A stretch of 64,000 nucleotides of DNA from an uncultured Nitrososphaerales archaeon (GCA_963841565.1 CAWJCY010000001.1:122826-186825); one strand, 5' to 3'. Positions 48,803-64,000 are shown, counted from the stretch's first letter. The notes: generated by a model not told the origin, from the sequence alone. Program-made: numbers and translations.

Positions 48803-50060
48803 TCAAACTAGTTCATATCTTCTACCATAAGCATGTAAGGCATTCTTGAAGGGCTCCAAGGGTGCCCTCACTAGGCCTGCCCCGATATAGCCTCCGCCTT
48901 CTCGCTTATGTGCAATAGCTGTATCTATAACAGGAGTGATCCCTGTTCTCATCACTTTTCTGATATCAATACCTGTTGCAGTACCTTGAAAGTTAATGAT
49001 TGGTAAAGTAAATGTATCATTAAGTGAATTTGTGATTTTCCGCATCTCATATGTGTACCTTATAGCGTCCTCGGCGGATCCACCAATGAGTGCCAATATT
49101 GCAGGTGATCCTGCCAAAGCGAATGCTCCGATACCCGCAGTCTCGGTAATTGCACTATCACCGATATCAGGATTAGCGTCTTCTGGGCCATAACCTGGAA
49201 AATACAATCCTTGAATCATGTTTGCCTCTCCAACGAACCAGTCATTTCCCAAACCACTCACCTTTATTCCAAAGTTAGTTCCATTTCTTGCCATCACTGT
49301 TACTATCGTACTGTATCGAATATCATGAGCCGCTTTTGCTATTGCTTTGCAAGCGAGCCATACTTACGCACAGGAAAAAAATATCATTCTCTGAGAGGTA
49401 TTTTGTTACCTCTCCTACCTCCTTTGGATTGCAAACTCCCAGTAGGTGAGGTAATATGGTAATTTCGAAAAGTAACGTACCAGCAGCTGGCCTATTATGC
49501 AGTTCGTCTCCCATGTGCAATGCCTTAGCCATTATCGGTTTAAGATCGATCCCCTTACTCTTACGGATGGCCTTGCCCAATAACTGAGATAGTTTTTCAG
49601 ACCAAAATCTAAGAACATCAACTGACTCTTTATCGAAGAGTCCAAATTGCACTCTGTTTTCTACGAATCGGGCAAAACATGTCTTGCCATTACTTTGATC
49701 CTTGACAACAAGGATAGGCAACGATGGAGAGATTACTCCTGCCATAGGTCCTACTGCATCATGATCGTGGTTAGAAGAAAATTCGATTTCGCCCTCCTTT
49801 ATCAATTTTACAGCATCACTCCAAGTCGTGGCTAATCCTTCGTAGATCATCGTACCCACGATTGCCCCTCGCAATGGGCCACACATCATTTTCCAATCAA
49901 TGGGAGGACCTGCATGAAAAATTGAGTTCTTCTTCATTTGAGGGAGAATATCCATTGCACATTTAATATCGATGAGCATGGGTCTGGAAAGACGCATCCG
50001 TTCGAGTGCCTTAATGTTAGCTTCTTCTATACGCTCTTTGATTCTAATTTCATTATTCAT
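48803..50060 (-). CDS. ylbE: DUF1116 protein (YlbE/AllG/YahG; oxamate carbamoyltransferase subunit family), +1 frameshift near 49355
   Basis: HAGPPI.W..MCGP.RGA, HDAVGPMAGVISPS, ALHMGDELHNR, MARNG..FGI, DANPDIGDSAITE..G.G, TGI.PVI.TAIAH. Confidence 0.9.
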
Positions 50061-50084
50061 TATGAGTATTTCCTGTAGTAATGG

Positions 50085-51059
50085 TCATCTAAAGAAATGT
50101 GTCCCAGATATACCAGCTAATGCATCAGAAAGGTGTTGAAGAGAGCAGACTATTGCCTCCTTTCCTCCGTTTCTTATAAATGAGATTGACGCTTGCACTT
50201 TGGGACCAATGCTGCCGCTTTCCAGGTCTTGCGAGCCCAATTTCTCTTCGAGATTCGTTCCCATACTGACAGTACCTATGAGCTCTTGGTTCTTCTTTCC
50301 ATAGTTTCGATATATTCCATCTACGTTGGTTAGTAATACCAACGTTGAAGCACCAATTGACGTTGCTAGTCTTTCACTGGCGAGATCTTTGTCTATCACA
50401 GCGTCGACTCCTTTGGTATTCCAATTCTCCTTCATCACGGGTATTCCCCCCCCTCCACATGCGACAACAATAAATCCAGCATCTACCAGAGAACGAATTG
50501 CTTCATAATTTACGATGGTAATAGGCCTTGGGGATGGAACCAAGAGCTTGAACTTTGTGCCATCAGAGCCTACTTTCCGTTTCTTAAGCTGTACTATTTC
50601 ATTTCTCAAGAGAACTTCGGTAATTTCGTCGTTAAATGTTTCTCCAATAGGCTTAGTGGGGTTGAGAAATGCATTGTCATTTGAATCAACAATTACTCTA
50701 GTAAGGAGAGTGGTCACGTTCTTATTCATGTTCGAACGGTCTAGCTCATCTTGTAATGCTTGTTCAATAATATATCCAATAAACCCTTGCGTTTCTGCGG
50801 TACATACGTATAACGGTAGGGCAGGATAATATTCGTCTGCTAGCCTATGTCTAACAAGGGTTGCTCCTACCTGTGGTCCGTTACCATGAGTTAGAACTAT
50901 TCTGTTTCTACAGTTGTCCCTTTTCATAAATTCAACGATCTGCTTCACAGCAACCTGTACGTTATGGTACTGTTCTTCAAATGTTCCTTTCTCACCAGAT
51001 CTCACAAGAGCATTTCCACCGATAGCAAAAACGATTAGATCTGATCTTGAATTACTCAA
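50085..51059 (-). CDS. arcC: Carbamate kinase
   Basis: AIGGNAL, THGNGPQVG, NPTKPIG, VPSP.P, GGGGIPV, DAVIDKDLAS, GSIGPKV. Confidence 0.95.
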   Translation of the reverse strand: MSNSRSDLIVFAIGGNALVRSGEKGTFEEQYHNVQVAVKQIVEFMKRDNCRNRIVLTHGNGPQVGATLVRHRLADEYYPALPLYVCTAETQGFIGYIIEQALQDELDRSNMNKNVTTLLTRVIVDSNDNAFLNPTKPIGETFNDEITEVLLRNEIVQLKKRKVGSDGTKFKLLVPSPRPITIVNYEAIRSLVDAGFIVVACGGGGIPVMKENWNTKGVDAVIDKDLASERLATSIGASTLVLLTNVDGIYRNYGKKNQELIGTVSMGTNLEEKLGSQDLESGSIGPKVQASISFIRNGGKEAIVCSLQHLSDALAGISGTHFFR

Positions 51060-51348
51060 GGGTTACTAAACTAGGCATATCTTATTTAAATTTAATGCAC
51101 AGAACATCTAAGAATTTGCATTTATCATAAAATCAGAATACATAGATATATAAATTATTAAAGACTGGTTATGGAAGACTTGCGAGCACTTATTTGTATT
51201 CGATCCTACTATTTGTGATCGATTTCAATTGGTAGTAAGGAAAATGCCTACGCATTGAAGCCGAACTAACTGCATTCCAGGGTAGGGATAAAATTTAAAT
51301 TCTTTCGAACGCATTTTCTTGATATCGTTTCAGATATTGGTCTTTTTG

Positions 51349-52284
51349 TCAGTTTCTTGCCTCTGAAAAACTGTGAACCTTAGGTAAGAGATCTGTGCCA
51401 AGGAACCGATCGCCTAACGTGAATAAAGCTATTGAGAGACCGGTACCAATATCTATTCCAGAGGTGTGTCCTCTGCAACTTAGCGTAGATAACAATGACA
51501 TGTAGCGTTCAATATGCCCTTCCCCAATCGAATTGATCAAACCTTGAATTTGTTCATCGACGATCAATTTTTGGTAGTATCCAATGAATTTGAAGCTGAT
51601 CCAAGTGGTCAAATCGTAGACACTCTTCATTGGTAGCGATATAGGAGGACATTTTAGATTTTGTGATAGCCAATTAAACAAGGAACTAAAACCGCAGATG
51701 AAATCATCTCCAGACGGTGTGAATCCGGGGCCCCTTCCGCACATTTTCATCAATGAATGGGACAACATCCTAACAAATTTGGTGTCATCTTTGTTCCTAA
51801 TGTTATTCTCTGAAGTTTCAGCAATGAACTGATGAAAGAGGCCTTGATTTGTTATCTCCGGTTCCAACAGACAACCACTCTTCCTTAATTTCATGAGGGA
51901 ACTCAAAATTTTTTCTGCAGCCTCGCTAAATTCGACCAATTTAGTATTAGTAGGCCTCACAAAAAAGTTTTTAAAGATAATGCTCTTTGCTGTGTGCAAT
52001 TTTATTCTCTCTCCAATGGAGACCCAGTCCCGGAATCTAAAGACATCACATCCATAATCGACAAGTCCTGCAAAATTGGAGTTACTAGATTGGGGCGTCA
52101 GGTTTATTGTGATAGGAGATTGTACCTTGTTTAGACTTATGACTAACAGTTCATTTCTAGAAGTCATGACGTTGAGACTAGAGGGAAACGAGCTTATGAC
52201 CTTACCAACTAAATTCTTCTTGGCTGTAGACTTGCGCATGTATTTTTGCAACACTCCTATGCACTCGCAATTGAAAGAAACCAT
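51349..52284 (-). CDS. ylbF: DUF2877 protein (YlbF/AllH/YahE family)
   Basis: GRGPGFTPSGDDFICG, TT..S, GHTSGID signature motifs. Confidence 0.88.
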   Translation of the reverse strand: MVSFNCECIGVLQKYMRKSTAKKNLVGKVISSFPSSLNVMTSRNELLVISLNKVQSPITINLTPQSSNSNFAGLVDYGCDVFRFRDWVSIGERIKLHTAKSIIFKNFFVRPTNTKLVEFSEAAEKILSSLMKLRKSGCLLEPEITNQGLFHQFIAETSENNIRNKDDTKFVRMLSHSLMKMCGRGPGFTPSGDDFICGFSSLFNWLSQNLKCPPISLPMKSVYDLTTWISFKFIGYYQKLIVDEQIQGLINSIGEGHIERYMSLLSTLSCRGHTSGIDIGTGLSIALFTLGDRFLGTDLLPKVHSFSEARN

Positions 52285-52417
52285 GTCTTCGCGTACCTCT
52301 GCTGTGGACGTATCTCCACTAGATGCATCTGATTGACATGTCAGTCTCTTCGCCTACATCAAGTTGCATTAACTCTTTTAAGCCTTTCGTATTCATTAAT
52401 TATTGTTATCGATGAGA

Positions 52418-52591
52418 TTACATAATTTTTGATAGAATCTCTTCACTAAGCTTGTCAAGGACAGGACCTGGTTTCCAGTCTACTTGAACGACTTTAATAT
52501 TTTGAACCTTTAGTGCATCATAAAAGATGCTCATACCTATGTTAATTACTTTCAAATCTGTATCCAATAATTTCTTTTGTGTGTTGGTCAT
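52418..52591 (-). CDS. 57-aa FdrA-associated small protein (stand-alone YahG N-terminal-like domain; not in the ORF track)
   Basis: MTNTQKKLLDTDLKVINIGMSIFYDALKVQNIKVVQVDWKPGP...; ATG overlaps the fdrA stop (TAATG). Confidence 0.85.
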   Translation of the reverse strand: MTNTQKKLLDTDLKVINIGMSIFYDALKVQNIKVVQVDWKPGPVLDKLSEEILSKIM

Positions 52592-54288
52592 TATGTCAAT
52601 TCGCCTAGATGTTTTTCTCCAATAAACTGTGAATATGCCTCTCGGAAGTCAATATGCCTTTTGGCTACTATGCCTGCAGCAGCGATTGCAGCGAAGGCAT
52701 TGGTAGGGAGAACCAGGACACCTGAATCCTTCAATCTTGTCAAAGATTGATCGTAACCTTGAGGGTCTCTTCGCGTCCCACAGACATGAGCTACAATGCT
52801 AAGGTATCGCTTGGCTTTAGAAGCTATTAGCTTTGCATTTCTAATTTCGTCAATAACTGAGCCAACTGGATCAGGATTGGAGCCATAACCAAGTACAAAA
52901 TCGAGGAGTATCACCGCTACATCCTTATAAGAGGCCTCTTCAACAATTCTGAGTTTTCTTATTGTAGGGTCTATCATTGGATGTGCCCTGCCTTTAGTAA
53001 ACTCTTCCTCACCAAGATCGATAACTGAATTCTTGAAACTTCTCATTGTGTCCTGTAGAAGTTGTGCCTTGGTTAGTGGAGCGTTAGAATAGAGTGGCCT
53101 AACAGCAAGGCCATTAAGAATAACCTGTGTTTCATATGCAAAAGTGCCACCGGTGTATAATGCTCTTAGGTACTTTTGTTCATTCTTAAGGCGCTTCCTT
53201 TCTGTCATAACAATTCGTTTGAGATCCTCAATCTTGACGTAAATAGGATCCATTGTCGATTCAGACTTGCTTACGTTATCGATATGTTTTACGGTTGCAA
53301 AGACCGATGATGTAAGAGTACTGGCGATAATAATTTTGTTTGGTTGCCTGGTAAGCCTCCTGTTACTGCTAACTTTTTTCACTTTAGTATTCTCTGCATA
53401 TGCGTTACTGCCGATAAAAGTCATTACGTACTTTTTCTTTCCGTGCCTTGTTGCATGATCAATTATTTTCTGCTGGACACTTGGTGCGGGAGGCTTTGAC
53501 ACTATATTAATCACATCGATATCTTCACATTCATCTAGCATCTTTAACGCCTCTGACATCATTAAGCCGCCAATCTTCTCTTTAGGATCATTTCCTCCGA
53601 CCCCCAGTCCATGCCTAACCCCTATTCCACAATGATCTAGTAATGTAGAAACCTCTTGTAATCCCGTACCCGCTGCTGCTACAATCGCGACAGGACCCGT
53701 GGTAACCGCATTTGAGAACCCAATTCCTCTTCCATTGATAATGGACGTCCCAGCACCTGGTCCCAAAATCAATACATGATTCTTCACTGCATATCTTTTT
53801 ATCTCAAGCTCATCATCCATACTGACATGATCGCTGAAAATTTGTTGATGAATTCCCTCTTCGATCAATCTGAATGCTAAGCCTCTAACGTGTTCACCAG
53901 GAACCGAAATTAATGCAATGTTAATGTCCTTAAAAGAACTAAGCACTGACTCAAGATCATGTGTCTCGTTAGTCGAGGAATGGTCCATATCTAGGGTTTG
54001 CTCGCCGCCAGTCCCACGTAGAATAGCTTCGATTTTTGGGATTGTTGCACTCAAGGAGCCGGCATCCTTAGCTCTTAAGGCAATTATCATATCGGAGTTC
54101 TCTGCCTTCGTAATTTGGTGAGTGGGAAAACCTAACTTAATCAAGATTTCTTTGTTAGTTTTAGTGCCCATAACCAGAGAGGCTTCTATTAGTCCAGGAT
54201 ATCGCTTGATCTCATCTGACAATCTAAGAAGTTCAAGTGAATCTCTATAGTAATTACGCTTAACTAGAACGTTTTGATGAGTATTCAC
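52591..54288 (-). CDS. fdrA: FdrA/AllF/YahF acyl-CoA-synthetase-like protein
   Basis: YRDSLELL, MGTKTNK, ISVPG, FSDHV, GPGAGT, GTGLQE, SKPPA, YTGGTFAYE, DLGEEEFTKGRAHPMIDP, DFVLGYGS.PDP, GT..DPQ. Confidence 0.93.
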   Translation of the reverse strand: MNTHQNVLVKRNYYRDSLELLRLSDEIKRYPGLIEASLVMGTKTNKEILIKLGFPTHQITKAENSDMIIALRAKDAGSLSATIPKIEAILRGTGGEQTLDMDHSSTNETHDLESVLSSFKDINIALISVPGEHVRGLAFRLIEEGIHQQIFSDHVSMDDELEIKRYAVKNHVLILGPGAGTSIINGRGIGFSNAVTTGPVAIVAAAGTGLQEVSTLLDHCGIGVRHGLGVGGNDPKEKIGGLMMSEALKMLDECEDIDVINIVSKPPAPSVQQKIIDHATRHGKKKYVMTFIGSNAYAENTKVKKVSSNRRLTRQPNKIIIASTLTSSVFATVKHIDNVSKSESTMDPIYVKIEDLKRIVMTERKRLKNEQKYLRALYTGGTFAYETQVILNGLAVRPLYSNAPLTKAQLLQDTMRSFKNSVIDLGEEEFTKGRAHPMIDPTIRKLRIVEEASYKDVAVILLDFVLGYGSNPDPVGSVIDEIRNAKLIASKAKRYLSIVAHVCGTRRDPQGYDQSLTRLKDSGVLVLPTNAFAAIAAAGIVAKRHIDFREAYSQFIGEKHLGELT

Positions 54289-54667
54289 AGAAGGTATGGA
54301 ACTGCCCGTTTTCGTAGTTCAGCGTTCAAAGCTATGGTATTTAAGCATAGTTGCGCTTTCAGCTAAAAATGCGCATAAATACAGTCATCATTTGATTAAA
54401 TTATATTGCAGATGTAATGAATAATCATAAGTGGTAGAACTACTTTTCCGGTAATTAGGATTATACGGGGATGATTGAAAGGGGTACTAGGACTCGCCAC
54501 TGTTTGATAGTAGACTCCGGGAAGGTGAGGTTTAATTTTCGTTCCTCTAGCATCAGATGCGACAGGCATTTAAAAAAGATTTGATTTCACATATCATCCA
54601 GAGTGTGTACTAAAGCCTGAAAAACTTGGACATTTGATCTGGCACCTGTTCAATCTAAACTTTCTTT

Positions 54668-54685
54668 TTTATGATATATCATAAA
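54668..54685. promoter_or_regulatory. Perfect 18-bp palindrome, candidate operator
   Basis: TTTATGATATATCATAAA in the divergent fdrA/ABC-transporter intergenic region, about 20 nt upstream of a TATA-like CTATATTA. Confidence 0.5.
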
Positions 54686-54743
54686 TCTTTAGCATAAATC
54701 AGACAAACTATATTACGATCTCCAACTGCTATAAATCCTGAGT

Positions 54744-55802
54744 ATGCTAGCAAGATCTGGTTTGAAAAATTTGAGAGGAGAACTAATAGCATTTTCAATT
54801 GGATTAATTCTGATCGCGGGGTCTGGTTTGTCTTTCCCAGTATTGGTCCCAGTGTCGGCTCAAAGTGAAGGGCAGCCTTTAAAGGTGAAATTATTAACTG
54901 ATGCGTTATTCAGCGATAGCGGATGGGGTGCTCCAGCATACAATGCTTCACAGGCTCTGAAAGAAAAATATGGCTTAGATTTAACTGCCGGCGAAAAGGT
55001 ACCCATTCCTGACATAGAGCCAACTTTGAGAGATGCAGCTGACGAGGGCAATGATCTCATAATAGCCCATGGCTTTGAGTGGGGAGATCCTGCAAAAAGA
55101 GTTGCTACCGACTATCCTGATACAAAATTTGTTGTATTTACAGGACTAACCAACGGTAGTAATGTAGCATCTGTTTTTCCAATGCAGCAGGAGGGATCAT
55201 ATGTCCTTGGAGCATTGGCGGCTATGATGTCAAAGACTGGCACCATTGGCTTTGTAGGTGGTCAAGCATATCCTAACATAATAAATATATTCGAGGGGTA
55301 TAAACAGGGAGCCAGGTCCATCAATCCTGACATAAAGGTATTAGGACAGTACATCGATACTTTCACTGACCCTGCTAGAGGGAAGGAGGCTGGAGTTTCA
55401 TTAATAAATAATGGTGCTGATTTCCTATTTCACGTCGCTGACCTGTCAGGGCAGGGAGTAATTCAAGCAGCAAAGGAAAAAGGTGTATATGCTTTAGGAG
55501 CTGTAGCCGATCAACATAATGCCGCTCCCGATACTGTCTTGACTTCGTTTGTTCTTGATATAGATAAATCTTTTGAGCAAGCCATAAACATGGTCCAGAA
55601 TGGTAACTTTAGTGGCCAGCTTTATAAGCCTGGATTAGAGACTGCAAAAGGTGCCTCCGGAGATGGTATCGTATTCATTGCACCATTCCATAATCTCGAT
55701 AGCAAGGTTCCAGCTGATGTGAAACAGAGGCTTAACCAAATCGTCCAAGATATAATAAGTGGCAAGATCGTAGTTCCGGAACGGACAGAAGCGTCATCTT
55801 AA
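54744..55802 (+). CDS. BMP/PnrA-family ABC substrate-binding protein (nucleoside/purine type)
   Basis: DSGWG, DLIIAHGFEW, EGSYVLGALAAMMSKTGTIGFVGG, F.DPARGKEA, GADF.FH.A, DQH..AP; signal peptide without lipobox Cys. Confidence 0.92.
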   Translation: MLARSGLKNLRGELIAFSIGLILIAGSGLSFPVLVPVSAQSEGQPLKVKLLTDALFSDSGWGAPAYNASQALKEKYGLDLTAGEKVPIPDIEPTLRDAADEGNDLIIAHGFEWGDPAKRVATDYPDTKFVVFTGLTNGSNVASVFPMQQEGSYVLGALAAMMSKTGTIGFVGGQAYPNIINIFEGYKQGARSINPDIKVLGQYIDTFTDPARGKEAGVSLINNGADFLFHVADLSGQGVIQAAKEKGVYALGAVADQHNAAPDTVLTSFVLDIDKSFEQAINMVQNGNFSGQLYKPGLETAKGASGDGIVFIAPFHNLDSKVPADVKQRLNQIVQDIISGKIVVPERTEASS

Positions 55803-57711: not shown

Positions 57712-58830
57712 TTGACCACAACTCTCATACTCGGGAAGAGACTCAGTTTTAAACACATCGTCCCGTTCCTGTCAGGTGGGCTGGCTTTTTTGGTCGGAGG
57801 AATCATACTTTATGCTGCAGGCGTGGATCCACTGGAAGCCTATGCTTTACTGATTAAGGGATCACTCGGAACTACGCGTGCAATTGCAGATACCCTTGTA
57901 AAGACTATATCGCTGCTCATTGCGGGTCTTGCAGTAGCTGTCGCATTTAAGTGTAAATTATGGAATATCGGCGCCGAAGGTCAACTCTATATGGGAGCTT
58001 TGGGAGGATTGCTGGTTGGGATTGCAGTGGTGGGTATGATTCCTGTAGTATCGGTTATTTTCGTTCTCATTGCAGGTATTGCATTTGGAGCAATGTTCAG
58101 TCTTGTGCCAGCGGTACTCAAGGTCAAATTGGGCGTAAGTGAAATAATTGTAACCGTTCTTCTCAATTTTGTAGCTCTACTCTTTATTTCATACCTTCTA
58201 CATGGACCAATCAAAGCGCCAGGGTTTTTGCCTTACAGTCCTGATATTTTTCCGGAGTCTGAGCTGCCTATTTTGGTAGAACATACCAGATTGCATGCGG
58301 GGCTAATCATAGCCGCATTAGCCGCTATTTTTGTCCATTTTCTATGGAAAAGTAAGATTGGATTTGAATTAAAGAGTGTAGGCATGAATATTTCAGCCGC
58401 ACGTTATGCAGGTATGAATATAACGAAAAGTATCCTGATAACTATGGCTATTAGCGGAGGGCTGGCAGGACTAACGGGAGCTGTGCTTCTAGCTGGAGTC
58501 CAACACCGACTCATTGAGGGTATTTCTCCTGGCTATGGATTCATCGCTGTGATCATTGCACTTTTGGGGAGAGAAAATGCCTTGGGAGTTTGTCTTGTCG
58601 CTTTCTTTTTTGCGGTCTTGTTAGCAGGATCCGAATCTATGTATAGAACGTTAGGCATACCAGTTGCTTTTGCTCAAACATTGCAGGCACTCGTTTTAGT
58701 TTTCGTGCTAATCGGAGAAGTATTTACCCGAATCCACCTTCCAAAAAGAATCAAGAGAGTCGATGAAGCCAAATTAGAGAACCTTGGGAAGCAGGTTGGA
58801 GCGCCTGCGGATAGGGGGAAAGTGGAGTGA
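57712..58830 (+). CDS. Nucleoside-type ABC transporter permease 1
   Basis: WNIGAEGQ, SEII.TVLLNF, GFELKSVG.N..AARYAG, GYGF.AV. Confidence 0.92.
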   Translation: MTTTLILGKRLSFKHIVPFLSGGLAFLVGGIILYAAGVDPLEAYALLIKGSLGTTRAIADTLVKTISLLIAGLAVAVAFKCKLWNIGAEGQLYMGALGGLLVGIAVVGMIPVVSVIFVLIAGIAFGAMFSLVPAVLKVKLGVSEIIVTVLLNFVALLFISYLLHGPIKAPGFLPYSPDIFPESELPILVEHTRLHAGLIIAALAAIFVHFLWKSKIGFELKSVGMNISAARYAGMNITKSILITMAISGGLAGLTGAVLLAGVQHRLIEGISPGYGFIAVIIALLGRENALGVCLVAFFFAVLLAGSESMYRTLGIPVAFAQTLQALVLVFVLIGEVFTRIHLPKRIKRVDEAKLENLGKQVGAPADRGKVE

Positions 58831-58839
58831 ATTGACAAA

Positions 58840-59775
58840 GTGGTAGAAATGATTGATTTTATTATCGGAATAGTAGCGTCAGGTATTCGTATGAGTACAC
58901 CGTCGCTCTTTGCTGCTCTAGGTGAAAATATTGCAGAACGTTCAGGTGTCCTCAATCTAGGGGTTGAAGGAATGATGCTAATCGGAGCATTTGCTGGTTT
59001 TATTGGAACGTTTGTCACCGGGAATGTAATCATAGGAATTTTGTTTGCTATATCCGGCCCGATGGTCATGGCAGCCCTAATGGCCTTTCTAAGTGTAAGT
59101 TTACGCACGAACCAGTTGGTTGCTGGTTTGGCCATCTGGCTCTTAGGGGTCGGCCTTGCAGCGCTGCTTTATCGACTGACTTTTGGCGTAGTCACGGTGG
59201 CGCCCACAGTACCAACTATCCCTCCTCTCGACATCCCATTTTTGAGTTCAATTCCAATTTTGGGACCTATTATTTTTCATCATGACGCAATGATCTATCT
59301 TGCGTTTTTGCTAATTCCTGTGACTCATATTTTTCTCTTCAAGACAAACATTGGTCTGAAGATAAGAACAGTGGGAGAGAACCCAAAGCAGGCTGATACG
59401 CTGGGTGTAAACGTAAACAGGATTCGCTACATGTCGGTAATCATAGGCGGCGCGTTTGCAGGTTTGGGAGGCTCCTATATCGCCTTAGTAACTACTGGTT
59501 CTTTTTCTGAAGACATTGCTGCGGGACAAGGATGGATTGCTCTCGCAGCTGTAATCTTCGGCAGATGGAGACCTTTTTGGATAGTAATAGGGGCTCTCGT
59601 TTACGGAATGGTCAATGCAACGGTATTAGGGTTACAGTCGATAGGAACGACTATTCCTTTTCAGTTATTGCTCATGCTACCGTACTTACTACCAATCGCC
59701 ATCCTGGCAGCTACGTTTAAGAAGAGTGTAGCACCCGCTGCATTGGCAACACCCTACAAGAGAGGAGAAAGATAG
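58840..59775 (+). CDS. Nucleoside-type ABC transporter permease 2
   Basis: AALGENIAERSGVLNLGVEGMML, GENP..ADTLGVNV, GQGWIALAAVIFGRWRP, MLPY, PAAL..PY. Confidence 0.93.
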   Translation: MVEMIDFIIGIVASGIRMSTPSLFAALGENIAERSGVLNLGVEGMMLIGAFAGFIGTFVTGNVIIGILFAISGPMVMAALMAFLSVSLRTNQLVAGLAIWLLGVGLAALLYRLTFGVVTVAPTVPTIPPLDIPFLSSIPILGPIIFHHDAMIYLAFLLIPVTHIFLFKTNIGLKIRTVGENPKQADTLGVNVNRIRYMSVIIGGAFAGLGGSYIALVTTGSFSEDIAAGQGWIALAAVIFGRWRPFWIVIGALVYGMVNATVLGLQSIGTTIPFQLLLMLPYLLPIAILAATFKKSVAPAALATPYKRGER

Positions 59776-59948: not shown

Positions 59949-60911
59949 CTAGTTGACAAATTTTACTTTATTCCTTATTTTGCCTATTCCTTCAACCTCA
60001 ACTTCTACGATGTCTCCATGTTGTAAATATTTAAGATGTGAAGACATCGATAAAGCCGTTCCGCCGGGAGTTCCTGTTGATATAATATCTCCAGCTTCAA
60101 GTGTCATGACACTACTTAGACTATTTACTATTTTCTCAATGTTTAGAACAAGCTTAGAAGTAGAAGAACATTGTCTAACTTCTTCGTTTACTTTAGTGAT
60201 CAGCTGCAAATCGTTTGGATCTGGGATGTCATCGCGGGTGACAAGCCATGGTCCACATGGTCCAAATGAATCAAAGCTCTTTGCTCGACTATATTGCTTA
60301 TCAATAAACTGTACGTCTCGCGCTGAAATGTCATTTAGCACGAAATATCCTCCTACATATTCCAATGCCTTATTCATCTCTACGTCTCTGCACTTCTTAT
60401 CAATCACAAAAGCTAACTCTCCTTCATAATCAAGCTGCTTTACAAATGAGGGACAGATTATATCTTCGAAGGCCCCAGCCAAACTGGTTCTGGCCTTCAT
60501 ATATATCACAGGATCCTTGGGCGGAAACTTTCCAAAGCGTAACCAAGTGTCTTGGTCTTTGTAATTAAATGCCAAGCAAATTATCTTAAATGATCTAGTG
60601 ATTGGTGGAAGCAAACGAAAATTGAAGATATTATGAGTTAGGTTCAATCCGTCAAGAACCTTTTGAATTCGATTTGAATACCCTTCAAAGATGAATTCTT
60701 CTAAAGTAGGAGGAATTTGAATATCAGTTTGAGACTCGATTTCGTCTGCTGTAATTGCATCTCCATTATTGTTGACAATGGCGTAAGTATCAGAATAAGG
60801 GTCAGATAGCATGGGCGTCAGTCTAGGACTCCCTCTACTGTTGTCTATATCTTCGGCCGCTGCTGATTCCTCAGACTCTAAATTTTCTTTCGCTACCCTA
60901 GCGATTCTCAA
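59949..60911 (-). CDS. Fumarylacetoacetate hydrolase-family protein
   Basis: KIICLAFNY, LDYEGEL, NDISARD, AKSFDSFGPCGP, GDIISTGTPGG. Confidence 0.92.
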   Translation of the reverse strand: MRIARVAKENLESEESAAAEDIDNSRGSPRLTPMLSDPYSDTYAIVNNNGDAITADEIESQTDIQIPPTLEEFIFEGYSNRIQKVLDGLNLTHNIFNFRLLPPITRSFKIICLAFNYKDQDTWLRFGKFPPKDPVIYMKARTSLAGAFEDIICPSFVKQLDYEGELAFVIDKKCRDVEMNKALEYVGGYFVLNDISARDVQFIDKQYSRAKSFDSFGPCGPWLVTRDDIPDPNDLQLITKVNEEVRQCSSTSKLVLNIEKIVNSLSSVMTLEAGDIISTGTPGGTALSMSSHLKYLQHGDIVEVEVEGIGKIRNKVKFVN

Positions 60912-60937
60912 ATCTAATGACTTGCTATCTTAAATGG

Positions 60938-61496
60938 TTAACCAACTCTTAAGTAGCTTTCATCAGAATCTACCTTCGCTTCCATCTCTATCTTGTGCAA
61001 TTGAAGCCTTTCTCTTAAAAAATGATGTTTAAGACACAGAATCTGACAGGCAAGAAGAGCGAGCATTATACGCGGAATCAATGCCTACCGTGGCAACTGG
61101 GACCCCTTGAGGCATCTGAATCATAGAAAGCAAAGAATCTGTTCCGCTGCCCAAAAATGATGAAGCATGTGACAAAGGTATTCCGATTACAGGAAGGGTT
61201 GTAAGGGAGGCTATCAGTCCGGGGAGATGTGCTGATCCGGTTCCGCAAGCGAGGACAACTTCTATTCCCCTTACTTCAAGATTACTTGCATACTTGATTG
61301 CCCTGTTAGGAGATCTATGAGCGGCAACAATGGTAGTCTCGTAGGGGATACCAAAGTTTTCCAAGACTGAGCATGCCTCATGAATTTTGTTGAACAATTC
61401 AATTGATGGAGCAACTATCGAAACCAGGTGGTGGTCTGAAGAAGTACCTTGTACACTCTTTAAACGTCTTTTTCTGGGCTTTAATGTTGATTTCAT
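60938..61496 (-). CDS. Divergent PurE (N5-CAIR mutase/AIR carboxylase)-like protein, +1 frameshift near 61061
   Basis: AHRSP, AHLPGLIASLTTLPVIGIP, DSLLSMIQMP.GVPVATV; restored C-terminus NAALLACQIL...LRERL; N-terminal GSDSD loop absent. Confidence 0.8.
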
Positions 61497-61901
61497 ACGG
61501 CGACAGGGTTGATAAGATAAGATTTTGTTTTTAAATCTATATTGAACATTCGCAAAGTAATAAGCCGTAAACCTTAGATGGCGTCACGATTTGCTAGAAG
61601 ATGGCAAATTGATGCTGGTCTACAATGTCTGTCCCCTTCCTAGTTGCATACCTACATGCTGTAAAGATTATGAAATTGTTTAACAATATTCATGATTTGC
61701 ATATATCCACAATGGTGCCTATATTGATATATGTAGCGATTTATCAAAATTATATAATAAGGATATAAAGTCGGCACAATAGTAACTAACATTGCAACAA
61801 GTTACACTGAGGCAGGGAAGAGAGTCAAATGGGAAAAAAATAGGACACAACAAGATTGGCTCCAACATCTATGAAGGAAAGATCTGTTTCTGCTGTCACT
61901 T

Positions 61902-63374
61902 ATGACAATAAGGAGAATGAACAAATTAGTGCGGGAATCTTCAAGTACAAAAACTATAGGATCCAGCATTTATGAGCTCTCCAAGCTCATTTCTTCAAAC
62001 TCTTTGTCACCGGTCGATCTGGTTGAAGATACACTTGAGAGGATCAATTCCCTAAACGAAGAGCTCCACGCATACATAACTGTGACGGGAGATTCTGCCA
62101 GAAAGGAAGCGAAAAAGGCAGAAGTGGATATACGTGATGGTAAATACTTGGGCCCATTGCACGGAATTCCTGTGAGTTTAAAGGATCTAATTTACGTTCG
62201 TGGAGTAAGGAGTACCAGTGGCTCAAGGATACTATCAGATTTTGTGCCTGACTATAACGCCACTGTCGTCAAGAAACTCAAGGAAGCTGGAGCAATTATA
62301 GTGGGCACGAACAATACTCATGAATTCGCTTGTGGAATTACCAACATAAATCCCCATTATGGTTCATCAAGGAACCCATGGGATCCCAGTAGAATGTCAG
62401 GAGGTTCCAGTGGTGGTTCAGCAGTTGCTGTGAGTGCAGGGATGGCTGTAGGCTCTCTAGGAACTGATACTAGCGGTTCTATCCGCGTTCCTTCATCACT
62501 TTGTGGGCTTTTCGGTCTAAAACCCACATACGGGAGAGTCAGCAAATATGGAGTCATGCCATTGGCTCCCTCAATCGATCACGTTGGGCCAATTGCACGA
62601 ACTGCGTGGGATACGGCGGCGCTATTGCAAGCTATTGCTGGCTATGACACACAGGATGAATCAACAGTGGACTTACCCGTTCCCGATTACCTTCAAATCG
62701 TATCTGAGACCTTGGACAAGCCAAGAAAATTTACTTTGGGTGTGCCTAAAGAGTACTTTTTTGACTTGATCGATTCAAGAGTTATGGAAATCTTTGAAAA
62801 TTGTTTGGATGAGATGCACGGATGTGGGGTTTCAACAGTTCCAGTTACCTTAAATGAGACACACAAGATTTCTGACGCTTGGAAGGCGTTCCGATTAGGT
62901 GAATCAGCGGCGGTTCATTTCCCATGGCTAAATTCCAGGCGCGATGAGTACGGAAGTGATGTGTTGGCCATGCTTGAAAGGGGAACGGAAATTACTGCTG
63001 TTGAATATATAACTGCGCTTCGCTACAAGAAGGAACTAAAGGAAGCATTTTTGAGAGCCATGAGGGGACTGGATGGCCTGCTAGTACCAACGACTGCCAT
63101 TAGCGCCCCTAGGTTAGAAGACACCGTAATAGACATCAATGGAAAAAGTACGGAGGTCTATATAGCGCTCAGTAGACTTACCACTGTCTTTAATATAACA
63201 GGCCTACCCTCGCTTAATGTCCCTGCAGGGCTTGTAGACGGCAGCCTTCCCGTTGGTGTTCAGCTAGTCGGAAGGGATTTCGACGAAGGTCTTCTTCTTT
63301 GTCTGGCAAACGTGTACGAGAGGAATTCAAAGATTTCTGAAAGAATGATTGCACCACTATGCCTGAGGCGATAG
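61902..63374 (+). CDS. Amidase-signature family enzyme (AtzE/GatA-like)
   Basis: GPLHGIPVSLKD, GGSSGGSA, GTDTSGSIRVPS (Ser-cisSer-Lys triad), GLKPTYGRVS, DHVGP; no gatB/gatC beside it. Confidence 0.92.
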   Translation: MTIRRMNKLVRESSSTKTIGSSIYELSKLISSNSLSPVDLVEDTLERINSLNEELHAYITVTGDSARKEAKKAEVDIRDGKYLGPLHGIPVSLKDLIYVRGVRSTSGSRILSDFVPDYNATVVKKLKEAGAIIVGTNNTHEFACGITNINPHYGSSRNPWDPSRMSGGSSGGSAVAVSAGMAVGSLGTDTSGSIRVPSSLCGLFGLKPTYGRVSKYGVMPLAPSIDHVGPIARTAWDTAALLQAIAGYDTQDESTVDLPVPDYLQIVSETLDKPRKFTLGVPKEYFFDLIDSRVMEIFENCLDEMHGCGVSTVPVTLNETHKISDAWKAFRLGESAAVHFPWLNSRRDEYGSDVLAMLERGTEITAVEYITALRYKKELKEAFLRAMRGLDGLLVPTTAISAPRLEDTVIDINGKSTEVYIALSRLTTVFNITGLPSLNVPAGLVDGSLPVGVQLVGRDFDEGLLLCLANVYERNSKISERMIAPLCLRR

Positions 63375-63670
63375 GAACGTATGAGCTGATAACGGCTCAC
63401 TAATGCCTACCAGTTAAATCGTTGCATGAATGAGATTACTTTTTCTTTCACGTATTCTGCAAATTTGAAGGTTGATAGTTAATCCTTATATCAATCCATC
63501 TTATATCGAATATTACTTGCATCGAAATTTGAAATTGCTTCCCGGAGTGACTAGACGTGCTACTCATTTAGTGGAATTTTATACTGCGTATCAGCAGCGT
63601 TTTTCTCGGGATTGATTATGTATATGTTGAGAAATGATGGGCTGGTAGCAGAATTCGGTGGCGAATTTTA

Positions 63671-64000
63671 ATGAAGAAAACTAATCCTACAAGATCAACA
63701 AATTCCGGCAATGATACGTCAGGAAGAGTTAGAAATGAAATTGCGAACAGGGTTGAAATAGACTATGAGGAATTTAAGGAGAGCCACACATTCAAATTTC
63801 CTACCTGGCTTTACGGTCCGGTTAAAGGTAAACTTCTAACAGTAGAAGTTGAAGATTGTCCACGGTTTGGCGACAAAGCATTTGTTGAATTTGATTCGGC
63901 TAGAACTGCATTCATAAGTGTGGACATGCAGGTTGATTTCTGCGGTCCAAAGGGGTACGTAGATGTAATGGGATATGATCTTGGGTTAACATCTGCTCCC
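63671..64000 (+). CDS. Isochorismatase-like cysteine hydrolase, biuret hydrolase-like (partial; runs off the window; not in the ORF track)
   Basis: Open frame from ATG 63671 to the end: ...RTAFISVDMQVDFCGPKGYVDVMGYDLGLTSAP, close to the recalled BiuH motif DMQTDFCGKGGYVDHMGYDL. Confidence 0.8.
   Translation, partial: MKKTNPTRSTNSGNDTSGRVRNEIANRVEIDYEEFKESHTFKFPTWLYGPVKGKLLTVEVEDCPRFGDKAFVEFDSARTAFISVDMQVDFCGPKGYVDVMGYDLGLTSAP

What the first reader, a model, noticed from the sequence alone, without database searches (positions are those of the whole stretch)
48803..64000. Candidate ureide/purine/biuret-to-ammonia catabolic island in an ammonia-oxidising archaeon
Seen: one contiguous block of fdrA, a small FdrA partner, DUF2877, carbamate kinase and DUF1116, divergent from a four-gene BMP-type nucleoside ABC importer, followed by an FAH-family enzyme, a divergent PurE, an amidase and a BiuH-like cysteine hydrolase. 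The block continues past the window end. Known: E. coli FdrA/YlbE/YlbF plus the YbcF carbamate kinase act in anaerobic allantoin catabolism (oxalurate to oxamate plus carbamoyl phosphate, then ATP, NH3 and CO2). BiuH and amidase-signature enzymes (AtzE/AtzF) release ammonia from biuret-type compounds. The established alternative AOA substrates are urea and cyanate. Inference: a complete import-and-degrade system letting a soil AOA mine N-heterocycles or ureides for ammonia (its energy source) and CO2. I am not aware of such a pathway being described in AOA. The actual substrate cannot be determined from the sequence.
Basis: partly seen in the sequence, partly recalled or inferred. Interest (0 to 1): 0.92.

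Follow-up and report, generated by a model that had tools for sequence, protein, structure and literature searches.

The report
Ureide-nitrogen gene cluster in soil archaeon
A soil ammonia-oxidising archaeon carries a conserved set of genes that probably imports small urea-like compounds such as biuret and breaks them down to ammonia; the genes are real, but the same cluster was described from genomes in 2025 and no function has been tested.

Summary
The contig carries amoA. The cluster is syntenic in relatives and is bridged by independent metagenome contigs.

The contig ends at the window end, which cuts the BiuH-type gene at residue 110. In relatives nothing catabolic follows that gene.

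Two frameshifts, in DUF1116 and in the PurE-like gene, look like systematic assembly errors at GCWGC sites.

The novelty claim fails. Rasmussen et al. 2025 (PMC12625717) already describe biuH, a gatA-like amidase, purE, FAH, bmpA-nupABC and allFGHK together in Nitrososphaeraceae. No wet-lab test turned up in the searches.

- The cluster is two modules. BiuH orthologs occur in 57 of 238 family genomes and DUF1116 in 33 of 238; 28 of those 33 also have BiuH.
- The PurE-like paralog lacks the GSDSD motif in 16 of 16 copies.
- The archaeal DUF1116 groups with E. coli YahG rather than with the characterised AllG, so oxalurate is not established as the substrate.
- No AllD, uricase or AtzD was found, so purine-ring breakdown is unsupported.
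- In Nitrososphaera, the carbamate kinase carries an inserted, circularly permuted copy of the transporter's binding protein.

The parts
48803..50060 (-). DUF1116/AllG-family subunit, read as two ORFs (49323-50060 and 48803-49297) because of one extra base near 49325.
   Evidence: PF06545 matches profile positions 1-150 (142.5 bits) and 169-215 (69.3 bits). Relatives have one intact 420-426 aa frame. The insertion is GCT-GC to GCTCGC against four relatives.
50085..51059 (-). Carbamate kinase (AllK-like), 324 aa.
   Evidence: NF009007 at 299.2 bits, above its cut-off of 266. TIGR00746 at 338.8 bits, below its cut-off of 358.25. Identity is 38% to E. coli YbcF and 39% to YahI.
51349..52284 (-). 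DUF2877/AllH-family subunit, 311 aa.
   Evidence: PF11392 at 65.1 bits, above its cut-off of 25. The similarity to YlbF and YahE is only weak.
52418..52591 (-). A 57-aa ORF: a free-standing copy of the roughly 50-aa segment that in E. coli forms the C-terminus of FdrA or the N-terminus of YahG.
   Evidence: It matches FdrA profile positions 503-551 of 555. blastp gives YahG residues 3-38 (E 1e-9) and FdrA residues 510-539. It is a separate ORF in 12 of 12 loci examined.
52591..54288 (-). FdrA/AllF-family subunit (succinyl-CoA-synthetase-alpha-like), 565 aa.
   Evidence: NF004760 at 361.7 bits, below its cut-off of 433, covering profile positions 5-504 of 555. Pfam finds Ligase_CoA and CoA_binding. 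Identity is 33.6% to YahF and 30.2% to E. coli FdrA.
54289..54743 (.). Divergent intergenic region between fdrA and the importer genes.
   Evidence: Read from the coordinates. No Rfam family matched. One independent contig carries about 146 other letters between 54737 and 54882, so this region varies between strains.
54744..55802 (+). BMP/PnrA-family substrate-binding protein with an N-terminal hydrophobic anchor.
   Evidence: PF02608 at 203.9 bits. The nearest solved chains are 7x0r Lbp (1e-40), AtzT 6pi5 (6e-36) and TmpC/PnrA 2fqw (2.7e-23).
55978..57663 (+). ABC ATPase with two nucleotide-binding domains.
   Evidence: PF00005 matches in two stretches, 173.7 bits.
57712..59775 (+). Two ABC permeases (57712-58830 and 58840-59775).
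   Evidence: PF02653 at 127.5 and 131.5 bits.
59949..60911 (-). FAH-family enzyme, 320 aa. It is a paralog of a second FAH gene at G000:C1:39581-40450.
   Evidence: PF01557 at 220.9 bits. No NCBIfam cut-off is reached. The best solved match is HpaG 1gtt at 3e-50. The paralog is 49.6% identical.
60938..61496 (-). Divergent PurE paralog. The ORF as assembled is 61029-61496. An extra base near 61057-61061 cuts off the last 30 or so residues seen in relatives.
   Evidence: PF00731 at 130.9 bits. TIGR01162 at 124.9 bits, below its cut-off of 149.6. The housekeeping purK-purE pair lies elsewhere. The GSDSD motif is replaced in 16 of 16 copies. One letter is left out at 61061 in 3 of 3 DNA runs.
61902..63374 (+). 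Amidase-signature enzyme ('gatA-like'), 490 aa.
   Evidence: PF01425 at 382.1 bits. All 25 NCBIfam matches listed are below their cut-offs, including GatA (335.7 vs 481), AtzE (331.8 vs 461) and allophanate hydrolase (251 vs 487). Solved-structure matches are GatA at 3.7e-82, AtzE at 1.9e-61 and AtzF at 3.8e-42.
63671..64000 (+). First 110 of about 290 aa of a BiuH-type cysteine hydrolase, cut off by the contig end.
   Evidence: It is 84% identical to the full 290-aa ortholog of G003. That ortholog matches PF00857 at 108.6 bits. It matches Rhizobium BiuH 6azo at 3.6e-71 and TrtA 6xix at 1.9e-44, with the D-K-C triad aligned. NF050097 scores 281 bits, below its cut-off of 370.

Best explanation
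This is an accessory nitrogen-scavenging cluster of Nitrososphaeraceae ammonia oxidisers, made of two modules that feed on small acyl-ureas (ureides) taken from the environment. It does not act on purine rings.

Module A: a BiuH-type cysteine hydrolase removes the terminal amide of biuret, or of a close analogue such as triuret or carboxybiuret, giving ammonia and an N-carboxy/N-carbamoyl acid such as allophanate. The neighbouring amidase-signature enzyme hydrolyses that acid further. Alternatively the acid is decarboxylated to urea for the cell's urease. I infer that the PurE-like and FAH-family proteins are these decarboxylases.

Module B: a BMP-type ABC importer brings the substrate in. An FdrA-DUF1116-DUF2877 complex cleaves an N-carbamoyl acid with phosphate to carbamoyl phosphate. 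Carbamate kinase then converts that to ATP, ammonia and CO2.

The ammonia can feed ammonia monooxygenase or assimilation.

Shown: gene content, conservation, linkage, paralogy and the motif states.
Inferred: every substrate and every reaction. For the FdrA-type complex the only biochemical precedent is oxalurate in E. coli, and orthology to that enzyme is not established here.
For: 1. Family assignments.
2. The host is an ammonia oxidiser. amoA lies on the same contig, 45 kb away. In G003 amoA lies about 50 kb from the cluster on a 1.13-Mb contig. amoA was found in 5 of 5 cluster-bearing or BiuH-bearing genomes tested.
3. Conservation:
   - The FdrA, 57-aa, DUF2877, carbamate kinase and DUF1116 genes lie beside ABC importer genes in 12 of 12 DUF1116-centred loci.
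   - Across 19 BiuH loci, the PurE-like gene is adjacent in 15, FAH in 13 and the amidase in 12.
4. Family-wide counts over 238 genomes: BiuH ortholog in 57, DUF1116 in 33, both in 28.
5. The BiuH ortholog keeps the Asp-Lys-Cys triad and scores closer to solved BiuH (243 bits) than to TrtA (156 bits) or RutB (80 bits).
6. A haloarchaeal plasmid pairs the same long-form hydrolase (61.5% identity) with atzF and a cytosine-type permease.
7. BMP importers sit in a Rhizobium biuH-atzD cluster.
8. Urease alpha is present in G000, G003, G188 and G118.
9. Independent metagenome contigs bridge 49372-55139 and 55110-61994.
10. Rasmussen et al. 2025 reached the same general reading.
Against: - No enzyme or growth test exists. 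None was found in paper searches.
- BiuH falls below the NCBIfam equivalog cut-off (281 vs 370), while a Rhizobium BiuH scores 428.
- The amidase reaches no named family's cut-off and is only 30% identical to the haloarchaeal AtzF.
- The roles given to the PurE-like and FAH proteins are guesses.
- The archaeal DUF1116 groups with YahG and a Peptoclostridium protein (support 89/93) rather than with characterised AllG. No AllD was found to make oxalurate.
- Expression is not shown. Only 18 short contigs of one RNA library lie on the stretch, and DNA carry-over cannot be excluded.
Confidence: 0.5

Rival explanations
1. One linear, ATP-yielding pathway. The FdrA-DUF1116-DUF2877 complex is not an oxalurate enzyme here. 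It phosphorolyses the product of module A: allophanate to carbamate plus carbamoyl phosphate, or carboxybiuret to allophanate plus carbamoyl phosphate. Biuret-type ureides would then give ammonia plus one ATP per carbamoyl group through carbamate kinase.
For: - DUF1116 is nested within BiuH carriers: 28 of 33, or 29 counting G008's cut copy.
- The nearest bacterial DUF1116 in the plasmid collection (52.8% identity, Peptoclostridium) sits with a BiuH-like hydrolase and two xanthine-type permeases. That hydrolase is 49% identical to the archaeal one and scores 319 bits on the BiuH model. No allD lies there.
- On a Klebsiella plasmid the same four genes follow a ring-opening amidohydrolase and a nucleobase symporter, with atzF nearby.
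- The archaeal DUF1116 groups with YahG and Peptoclostridium, not with YlbE or the allD-linked E. faecalis copy.
- No AllD was found in 0 of 5 genomes, and the control for that search rang.
- From chemistry alone, allophanate and carboxybiuret share the H2N-CO-NH-CO- skeleton of oxalurate.
Against: - No biochemical precedent exists. The only assayed enzyme uses oxamate/oxalurate (PMC11326118; abstract and passages read).
- The amidase next to biuH could already dispose of allophanate.
- The importer always travels with module B, while BiuH-only loci use an NCS1 permease. That fits a separate imported substrate for module B.
- The tree has 14 rows and the key branch is not strongly supported.
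Confidence: 0.2
2. A different substrate class altogether: a pyrimidine-, hydantoin- or oxidised-purine-derived ureide in which the PurE-like decarboxylase and the FAH C-C hydrolase/decarboxylase are central. The 'BiuH' would act on an amide other than biuret.
For: - The PurE-like and FAH genes track BiuH closely (15 and 13 of 19 loci). The simple biuret route does not need them.
- BiuH is below its equivalog cut-off.
- NCS1 (cytosine/allantoin-type) and CitMHS carriers sit in the Nitrososphaera versions.
- The nearest solved binding proteins include a heterocycle binder, AtzT.
Against: - Identity to solved BiuH is about 58% over the catalytic domain, with the catalytic triad aligned.
- No ring-opening enzyme was found (the control was silent).
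- Some genomes carry BiuH alone, for example the complete G014.
Confidence: 0.12
3. The cluster serves nitrogen assimilation or carbamoyl-phosphate supply only. The ammonia or carbamoyl phosphate goes to biosynthesis, and the cluster does not fuel ammonia oxidation.
For: In E. coli the pathway is described as nitrogen recycling via carbamoyl phosphate (PMC11326118, introduction passage). Nothing in the sequence links the cluster to AMO apart from sharing a genome with it.
Against: Released ammonia is freely available to AMO, as it is with urea and cyanate in AOA. Sequence alone cannot separate the two uses.
Confidence: 0.1
4. Nucleoside or purine salvage: a PnrA-type nucleoside importer with a PurE for purine synthesis.
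For: The annotation names alone (BMP 'nucleoside' transporter, PurE).
Against: - The housekeeping purK-purE pair is elsewhere.
- The cluster PurE lacks GSDSD in 16 of 16 copies and has Trp in place of the motif Arg in 5 of 16.
- The binding protein is closer to AtzT than to PnrA/TmpC.
Confidence: 0.04
5. Artefact: a chimeric contig or a decaying, pseudogenised cluster.
For: Two frameshifts lie within 12 kb, and the genome is a MAG at 88% completeness and 4.4% contamination.
Against: - Both frameshifts are the same GCTGC-to-GCTCGC insertion.
- Removing the extra base at such sites genome-wide lengthens the open frame by at least 300 nt at 21 of 389 sites, against 5 of 1059 sites at four control hexamers.
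- The base at 61061 is absent in 3 of 3 independent DNA runs.
- Synteny holds with amoA-linked contigs of relatives and with a complete genome.
- GC is 0.39-0.44 in the cluster, within the window's range of 0.37-0.45.
Confidence: 0.03

Closest known systems
biuH / gatA-like / purE / FAH / bmpA-nupABC / allFGHK clusters of Nitrososphaeraceae (Rasmussen et al. 2025, mSystems, PMC12625717)
   Same: It has the same gene set, the same family and the same proposed use: triuret/biuret and oxalurate as hidden ammonia sources. The paper lists TH5896 among its genera. Named same-genus relatives of this window are titled TH5896 and TH5895. The paper notes the long N-terminus of archaeal BiuH and the distinct gatA-like clade.
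   Different: Nothing essential differs.
- the nesting of allFGHK within biuH carriers;
- the lost nucleotide motif of the PurE paralog;
- the Yah-versus-All paralogy;
- the free 57-aa segment;
- the kinase::BMP insertion ('fusion' and 'fused' occur 0 times).
The paper's supplements could not be seen and may cover some of these.
E. coli allFGHK (fdrA-ylbE-ylbF-ybcF), oxamic transcarbamylase plus catabolic carbamate kinase (Kim & Kim 2024, PMC11326118; 2022, PMC9843812, listing only)
   Same: The three subunit families and an adjacent carbamate kinase are shared.
   Different: - The gene order differs: F-small-H-K-G here, F-G-H-K in E. coli.
- Here the roughly 50-aa C-terminal segment of FdrA is a separate ORF.
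- There is no allD, allC or allB context.
- Identity to YlbE (42%) is lower than to YahG (47%).
E. coli yahE-yahF-yahG-yahH-yahI-yahJ (function unknown)
   Same: These are the best E. coli matches for the FdrA-like protein (33.6%) and the DUF1116 protein (47%). DUF1116 groups with YahG in the tree.
   Different: In Yah the roughly 50-aa segment is fused to the N-terminus of YahG. The Yah cluster has an amidohydrolase (YahJ) and no cysteine hydrolase or importer. No paper on its function appeared in the listing.
Bacterial biuret/triuret/cyanurate clusters (Rhizobium biuH-atzD; Herbaspirillum trtA-trtB-biuH-atzF, PMC7948467, passages read)
   Same: A BiuH-type hydrolase lies next to a BMP-type ABC importer. 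The chemistry is triuret to carboxybiuret to biuret to allophanate to ammonia.
   Different: The archaeal cluster has no AtzD, no TrtA-type second hydrolase and no AtzF. It has instead a PurE-like gene, an FAH gene, a distinct amidase and the FdrA-type module.
Peptoclostridium acidaminophilum cluster (NZ_CP007453.1) and Klebsiella aerogenes plasmid cluster (NZ_CP103667.1)
   Same: DUF2877, FdrA, DUF1116 and carbamate kinase lie next to a BiuH-like cysteine hydrolase (Peptoclostridium) or a ring-opening amidohydrolase (Klebsiella), with nucleobase-type permeases.
   Different: They use secondary permeases rather than an ABC importer, and they lack the PurE-like, FAH and amidase genes. Both are uncharacterised, as far as the annotation shows.

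Membership tests
Oxamate carbamoyltransferase AllFGH (E. coli) | Three subunits of the FdrA, DUF1116 and DUF2877 families encoded together. | tested here: met
   PF00549 plus PF02629 and NF004760; PF06545; PF11392. The genes are together in 12 of 12 loci.
Oxamate carbamoyltransferase AllFGH (E. coli) | An adjacent catabolic carbamate kinase. | tested here: met
   NF009007 at 299.2 bits, above its cut-off of 266.
Oxamate carbamoyltransferase AllFGH (E. coli) | Orthology to the assayed YlbE/FdrA rather than to paralogs. | tested here: not met
   DUF1116 is 47% identical to YahG (397 bits) and 42% to YlbE (340 bits). FdrA is 33.6% identical to YahF and 30.2% to E. coli FdrA. In the 14-row tree the AOA sequences group with YahG and Peptoclostridium at 89/93, with YlbE outside. 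The sample is small, so this is weak.
Oxamate carbamoyltransferase AllFGH (E. coli) | A source of oxalurate (ureidoglycolate dehydrogenase AllD) in the genome or cluster. | tested here: not met
   PF02615 was found in 0 of 5 genomes, and the control rang in 5. Import of oxalurate is not excluded.
Oxamate carbamoyltransferase AllFGH (E. coli) | Catalysis of oxalurate + Pi <-> oxamate + carbamoyl phosphate. | not testable with these tools
   This needs an enzyme assay.
Biuret hydrolase BiuH (isochorismatase-like cysteine hydrolase) | The Asp-Lys-Cys catalytic triad in an isochorismatase domain. | tested here: met
   This was tested on the full-length G003 ortholog, which is 84% identical over the window's 110 aa. 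The three residues align with chain 6azo, including the Lys that is changed in the variant chains 6azs and 5bk6. The window copy itself reaches only the Asp.
Biuret hydrolase BiuH (isochorismatase-like cysteine hydrolase) | Reaches the curated equivalog score. | tested here: not met
   NF050097 scores 281.3 bits against a cut-off of 370. A Rhizobium BiuH scores 428.4, a second Rhizobium hydrolase 247.3, and the Peptoclostridium hydrolase 318.8.
Biuret hydrolase BiuH (isochorismatase-like cysteine hydrolase) | Closer to BiuH than to TrtA, RutB or other family members. | tested here: met
   243 bits to 6azo and 225 bits to 6xjm (both BiuH), against 156 bits to 6xix (TrtA) and 80 bits to RutB.
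Biuret hydrolase BiuH (isochorismatase-like cysteine hydrolase) | Biuret-specific activity. The position of Gln202 decides biuret versus triuret (PMC7948467, passage read). | not testable with these tools
   This is a structural and enzymatic property.
N5-CAIR mutase PurE | The AIR-carboxylase fold with the catalytic His and the AAHLPG loop. Residue roles are recalled from the E. coli PurE literature, not taken from a call. | tested here: met
   PF00731 at 130.9 bits. The His of AHR/AHW and the AHLPG loop are present in 16 of 16 cluster paralogs.
N5-CAIR mutase PurE | The G-S-x-S-D motif, recalled as the ribose-phosphate binding loop, and the equivalog score. | tested here: not met
   The motif is replaced by x-P-S/N/L-x-x-L/D in 16 of 16 copies. 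The Arg after the catalytic His is Trp in 5 of 16. TIGR01162 scores 124.9 bits, below its cut-off of 149.6.
N5-CAIR mutase PurE | A purK partner or purine-synthesis context. | tested here: not met
   The purK-purE pair is at G000:C3:130002-131688, and that PurE scores 214.9 bits.
Allophanate hydrolase AtzF / 1-carboxybiuret hydrolase AtzE / GatA | Reaches a curated family score. | tested here: not met
   GatA 335.7 vs 481; AtzE 331.8 vs 461; allophanate hydrolase 251 vs 487 and 230.6 vs 511. It is 30% identical to a haloarchaeal AtzF. The true GatA-like gene and another paralog lie elsewhere.
Allophanate hydrolase AtzF / 1-carboxybiuret hydrolase AtzE / GatA | A small partner subunit (AtzG/GatC type) beside the gene. 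| tested here: not met
   No plausible small ORF lies in 61497-61901 or 63375-63670.
PnrA/BMP nucleoside ABC importer | A Bmp-domain binding protein, two BPD_transp_2 permeases and a double ATPase. | tested here: met
PnrA/BMP nucleoside ABC importer | Nucleoside specificity. | tested here: inconclusive
   The nearest solved chains are 7x0r Lbp and AtzT 6pi5. TmpC/PnrA 2fqw is weaker. The same importer type sits in a Rhizobium biuH-atzD cluster. Ligand residues were not compared.

The most novel reading that the evidence does not exclude
In ammonia-oxidising archaea, and in some bacteria, the FdrA-DUF1116-DUF2877 complex is an 'acyl-urea phosphorylase' rather than an oxalurate enzyme. It takes the product of the BiuH-type hydrolase (allophanate or carboxybiuret) and yields carbamoyl phosphate. 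Biuret-family compounds would then give the cell both its energy substrate, ammonia, and substrate-level ATP through carbamate kinase. The PurE paralog, stripped of its nucleotide-binding loop, would be an N-carboxy decarboxylase of the same pathway. In Nitrososphaera the kinase would be gated by an inserted, circularly permuted copy of the importer's binding protein, which senses the imported ureide inside the cell.
Probability: 0.15. Interest if true: 0.8.

Novelty: already known. Interest (0 to 1): 0.42.

Why it matters
Which organic nitrogen compounds can drive nitrification in soils is an open practical question. Biuret and triuret are impurities of urea fertiliser (PMC7948467 abstract), and ureides are released by plants and by purine oxidation.

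If this cluster works as proposed, soil ammonia-oxidising archaea could nitrify nitrogen that standard ammonium and urea budgets miss. The carbamoyl-phosphate branch would be a rare case of substrate-level ATP gain in an ammonia oxidiser.

The idea is testable. G188 is a complete genome whose kinase-BMP protein is identical to a record named Nitrososphaera viennensis, and it carries both modules. The genomic observation itself is already published, so the remaining value lies in experiments and in the mechanistic details added here.

Tried and rejected
- **Rest of the hydrolase gene.** I looked for it on other contigs of the assembly. It was not found; only distant paralogs at 24-30% identity turned up.
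- **The search for related loci with the PurE-like protein on genome contigs.** It returned 7 loci, all close Nitrososphaerales relatives, so it gave no bacterial context.
- **Plasmid search with the PurE-like protein.** It gave only ordinary purE genes below 50% identity. An Agrobacterium Ti-plasmid purE has an unrelated context.
- **AtzG/GatC-like partner beside the amidase.** None was found.
- **Upstream amidohydrolase 45922-47088.** I considered it as part of the cluster and rejected it. It is syntenic only within the genus (G003, G009), is absent from the other genera's loci, and has no hit to YahJ.
- **Expression.** One RNA library (X20) held a 0.05 share of the words. 18 contigs of about 151 nt lie on the carbamate kinase, the ATPase and the amidase at 90-99% likeness, depth 2-3. 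The tool warns that DNA may be present, and no silent stretch was laid, so transcription is not shown.
- **DUF1116 frameshift in independent contigs.** No listed piece bridges 49135-49372, and 13 indel rows were not shown, so this route left the question open.
- **Mobile-element boundaries.** Only a tRNA-Ala at 43734-43806, no Rfam match and no meaningful repeats.
- **Paper searches that gave nothing usable.** '7X0R' gave 0 papers. The search for PurE residue roles gave nothing relevant, so those roles are recalled. The DUF1116/DUF2877/yahF/yahG search listed no functional study beyond those cited.
- **Earlier notes of this scan.** None were found.
- **Supplements of PMC12625717.** They are closed. 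Its Fig. S10, S12, S14, S15 and Supplemental Results may already contain some of the details I list as additions.

Full report
**What is there**

The window is G000:C1:122826-186825, and contig C1 ends exactly at the window end.

Between 48803 and 64000 the ORF list and the family scans give, on the minus strand:
- FdrA, 52591-54288.
- A 57-aa ORF, 52418-52591.
- DUF2877/AllH, 51349-52284.
- Carbamate kinase, 50085-51059.
- DUF1116/AllG, 48803-50060, read as two ORFs.

Divergently, on the plus strand, lie a BMP-family binding protein, a double ABC ATPase and two permeases (54744-59775). After these come an FAH-family gene (-), a PurE-like gene (-), an amidase-signature gene (+) and the first 110 codons of an isochorismatase-type hydrolase (+).

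The full hydrolase is 290-298 aa in relatives (PF00857). Its missing part is not elsewhere in the assembly.

**Is it sound?**

amoA (PF12942, 393 bits) lies on the same contig at window 3186-3734. GC in the cluster bins (0.39-0.44) lies within the window's range.

The same genes in the same order occur in same-genus genomes. In G003 they lie on a 1.13-Mb contig with amoA about 50 kb away.

A 10-kb stretch of the cluster is held at half or more of its sampled words by 10 public runs labelled soil or freshwater-sediment metagenome, from five coded studies. One of these may be the source. In one such run, single contigs cover 49372-55139 and 55110-61994.

The two frameshifts are the same event: one extra base turns GCTGC of relatives into GCTCGC. 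Genome-wide, deleting that base at GCTCGC/GCGAGC sites lengthens the spanning open frame by at least 300 nt at 21 of 389 sites. At four control hexamers the figure is 5 of 1059. At 61061 the letter is left out in 3 of 3 DNA runs laid.

I therefore read both frameshifts as systematic assembly errors, not decay. For the DUF1116 site the read data were not informative, so that case rests on the relatives and on the genome-wide pattern.

**Already in print**

A full-text search for oxamate carbamoyltransferase, allFGH and fdrA returned Rasmussen et al. 2025 (mSystems, PMC12625717). I read its abstract, its section 8 and further passages.

The paper reports, in Nitrososphaeraceae MAGs including genus TH5896 and in Nitrososphaera viennensis, biuH collocated with:
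- an uncharacterised gatA-like amidohydrolase,
- purE,
- an FAH-family gene,
- bmpA-nupABC,
- allFGHK.

It proposes triuret/biuret and oxalurate utilisation. It also states that no AOA MAG had known upstream purine-degradation genes.

Named same-genus relatives of this window are titled 'Nitrososphaerales archaeon TH5896' and 'TH5895'.

Searches found no paper testing such substrates on AOA.

**Distribution and modules**

I searched 238 genomes of the family, G000 included.
- DUF1116 occurs in 33 (7 of 18 genera).
- A BiuH ortholog at E<=1e-40, with 77-100% identity over full-length matches, occurs in 57 (11 of 18 genera).
- 28 genomes have both, 5 have DUF1116 only and 29 have BiuH only.
- One flagged-unpublished genome sits in each of the two 'only' groups (G204, G255).
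- G008 has a DUF1116 fragment cut by a contig end, on the same contig as its BiuH.
- Related genomes are not independent, so I give no statistical test.

DUF1116-centred loci (12 usable; a 13th, G133, is truncated):
- The FdrA, 57-aa, DUF2877, kinase and DUF1116 genes and the ABC importer genes are together in 12 of 12.
- BiuH lies within the fetched stretch in 8, the PurE-like gene in 9, FAH in 6 and the amidase in 6.

BiuH-centred loci away from DUF1116 (11):
- The PurE-like gene is adjacent in 7, FAH in 7, the amidase in 6 and an NCS1 permease in 5.
- Two, G014 (a complete genome) and G104, show BiuH alone.

The cluster is thus two modules: BiuH with PurE-like, FAH and usually the amidase; and the FdrA-type set with kinase and BMP importer. 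The second module is largely nested within carriers of the first.

**The individual proteins**

*BiuH-type hydrolase.*
- The G003 ortholog matches solved Rhizobium BiuH (6azo, 3.6e-71) and Herbaspirillum BiuH (6xjm, 1.3e-65).
- These matches are better than those to TrtA (6xix, 1.9e-44) or RutB, and the Asp-Lys-Cys triad is aligned.
- It stays below the NCBIfam BiuH cut-off, at 281 against 370.
- A haloarchaeal plasmid has the same long-form protein (61.5% identity over 99% of its length) directly followed by atzF, with a cytosine-type permease nearby.

*Amidase.* It reaches no curated family score. GatA and AtzE are the best matches. It is 30% identical to that haloarchaeal AtzF.

*PurE-like protein.*
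- It is an extra paralog. The purK-purE pair is on contig C3.
- In 16 of 16 cluster copies the G-S-D-S-D stretch of the housekeeping PurE is replaced.
- In 5 of 16 the Arg after the conserved His is Trp. The His and the AHLPG loop are kept in all 16.
- I recall from the E. coli PurE literature, without a call to support it, that the replaced stretch binds the ribose phosphate and that the retained residues act in carboxyl transfer.
- I infer a (de)carboxylase for a substrate that is not a nucleotide.

*FAH protein.* It is nearest to HpaG-type decarboxylase/isomerases and has a 50%-identical paralog elsewhere on the contig.

*Binding protein.* It is nearest to 7x0r 'Lbp' and to the atrazine-binding AtzT, ahead of TmpC/PnrA. 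A BMP importer also sits in a Rhizobium biuH-atzD cluster.

**Is the FdrA-type set an oxalurate enzyme?**

The only assayed enzyme is E. coli AllFGH. It was measured in the reverse direction with purified protein, with a KM for oxamate of 36.9 mM (PMC11326118; abstract and passages read).

E. coli also has the uncharacterised paralogs yahE-F-G-I. The archaeal proteins are a little closer to these:
- DUF1116: 47% to YahG, 42% to YlbE.
- FdrA: 33.6% to YahF, 30.2% to E. coli FdrA.

In a 14-row maximum-likelihood tree the seven archaeal DUF1116 sequences group with YahG and a Peptoclostridium protein (89/93). YlbE, the allD-linked E. faecalis copy and a Klebsiella plasmid copy fall outside. The tree is small and the branch is not strongly supported.

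Gene contexts differ by group:
- E. coli all and E. faecalis carry allD.
- Peptoclostridium has a BiuH-like hydrolase and two xanthine-type permeases under a PucR regulator. That hydrolase is 49% identical to the archaeal one and scores 319 bits on the BiuH model.
- A Klebsiella plasmid has a ring-opening amidohydrolase and a nucleobase symporter, with atzF nearby.

The 57-aa ORF corresponds to a segment that sits at the C-terminus of E. coli FdrA and at the N-terminus of YahG. In the archaea it is a separate gene in 12 of 12 loci.

AllD-type dehydrogenase and uricase were not found in 0 of 5 genomes, two of them complete, and the controls for both rang. AtzD-type hydrolase was not found either, but its control was silent. 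Urease alpha is present in G000, G003, G188 and G118.

**How it most likely works**

I commit to the two-module ureide reading given under Best explanation (0.5):
- Small acyl-ureas are imported.
- The BiuH-type enzyme deamidates them.
- The resulting N-carboxy acid is disposed of by the amidase, or by decarboxylation to urea.
- A phosphorolytic branch yields carbamoyl phosphate, and from it ATP, ammonia and CO2.

The boldest reading that the data allow is that the phosphorolytic branch takes the BiuH product itself (0.15-0.2). It rests on:
- the nesting of DUF1116 within BiuH carriers;
- the bacterial gene contexts;
- the Yah-side affinity of the archaeal proteins;
- the absence of AllD.

Against it stand the lack of any biochemical precedent and the fact that the importer travels with the FdrA-type module.

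Every substrate and every reaction is inferred. Only gene content, linkage, conservation and motif states are shown.

**A side observation in relatives**

In four species of another genus of the family (G188, G156, G120, G184; G133 is cut by a contig end) the carbamate kinase gene is a single 638-675 aa frame.

In that frame a complete BMP domain, circularly permuted, is inserted after about residue 135 of the kinase. The permutation runs from binding-protein residues ~168-351 to ~42-178.

The insert is 65-94% identical to the importer's binding proteins of these clusters. In G188 it is 94% identical over 137 residues and 78% over 184 residues to that genome's own binding protein.

A database search found about 80 clusters listed with both Pfam domains. 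Where a source names them, the names are carbamate kinase or BMP protein, from Nitrososphaera, Nitrososphaeraceae or Thermoproteota. One is 100% identical to G188's protein and named Nitrososphaera viennensis.

This ties the importer's ligand to the kinase inside the cell. The words 'fusion' and 'fused' do not occur in the main text of PMC12625717.

**Verdict**

The cluster is already published as a genomic prediction. It remains biochemically untested and is testable in a cultured strain.

Noticed in passing
L034:17411-19321 (G188); also G156, G120 and G184: The carbamate kinase of the orthologous cluster in another genus is one 636-675 aa protein. A circularly permuted BMP binding-protein domain is inserted into the kinase. 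The insert is 65-94% identical to the cluster's own importer binding protein. About 80 database clusters listed share both domains. One is identical to G188's protein and named Nitrososphaera viennensis.
   Followed up: partly
Window ~49325 and ~61057-61061; genome-wide in G000: There is a systematic one-base insertion turning GCWGC into GCTCGC/GCGAGC. Removing the base restores long frames at 21 of 389 such sites, against 5 of 1059 control sites. This is probably a basecalling or assembly error, perhaps at a methylated motif. It means other genes of this assembly are falsely split.
   Followed up: partly
Window 52418-52591 (-): A conserved free-standing 57-aa gene corresponds to a segment that is fused to the C-terminus of FdrA in the E. 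coli all operon and to the N-terminus of YahG in the yah operon. The small domain thus moves between subunits.
   Followed up: partly
L078 (Klebsiella aerogenes plasmid NZ_CP103667.1) and L075 (Peptoclostridium acidaminophilum NZ_CP007453.1): DUF2877, FdrA, DUF1116 and carbamate kinase sets lie next to a ring-opening amidohydrolase (Klebsiella) or a BiuH-like cysteine hydrolase (Peptoclostridium), with nucleobase permeases and without allD. This hints that the enzyme family has substrates other than oxalurate.
   Followed up: partly
L031:14998-19323 (Natronorubrum daqingense plasmid): A compact haloarchaeal module: a long-form BiuH-type hydrolase, atzF and a cytosine-type permease, surrounded by mobile and hypothetical genes.
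   Followed up: no
Window 3186-3734 (-): amoA lies on the same contig, 45 kb from the cluster. A similar spacing is seen in G003.
   Followed up: partly
G000:C13:101335-105082; L017:3-1043: A second amidase paralog (45.6% identical) lies next to a histidine kinase with a PLD-like domain. In G028 a similar kinase fragment (PLDc_2 plus HisKA) borders the cluster itself.
   Followed up: no
L034:2157-3599 and 4548-6098 (G188); G118, G164, G184, G175, G122, G084: In some other genera (e.g. G188, G118, G084) module A carries an NCS1 (cytosine/allantoin-type) permease and, in some, a CitMHS-family carrier between the hydrolase and FAH. The window's genus has neither.
   Followed up: no
Window 44084-47088: A small C2H2 zinc-finger ORF (weak Pfam hits), an HtrA-type protease and an amidohydrolase (weak HutI-like similarity) lie upstream. 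The protease and the amidohydrolase are syntenic only within the genus, and I judged these genes not to be part of the cluster.
   Followed up: partly
G188:C1:1252251 and 1274867; G118:C1:2394937 and 2414075: Two full-length urease alpha genes in each of two complete genomes of one genus.
   Followed up: no
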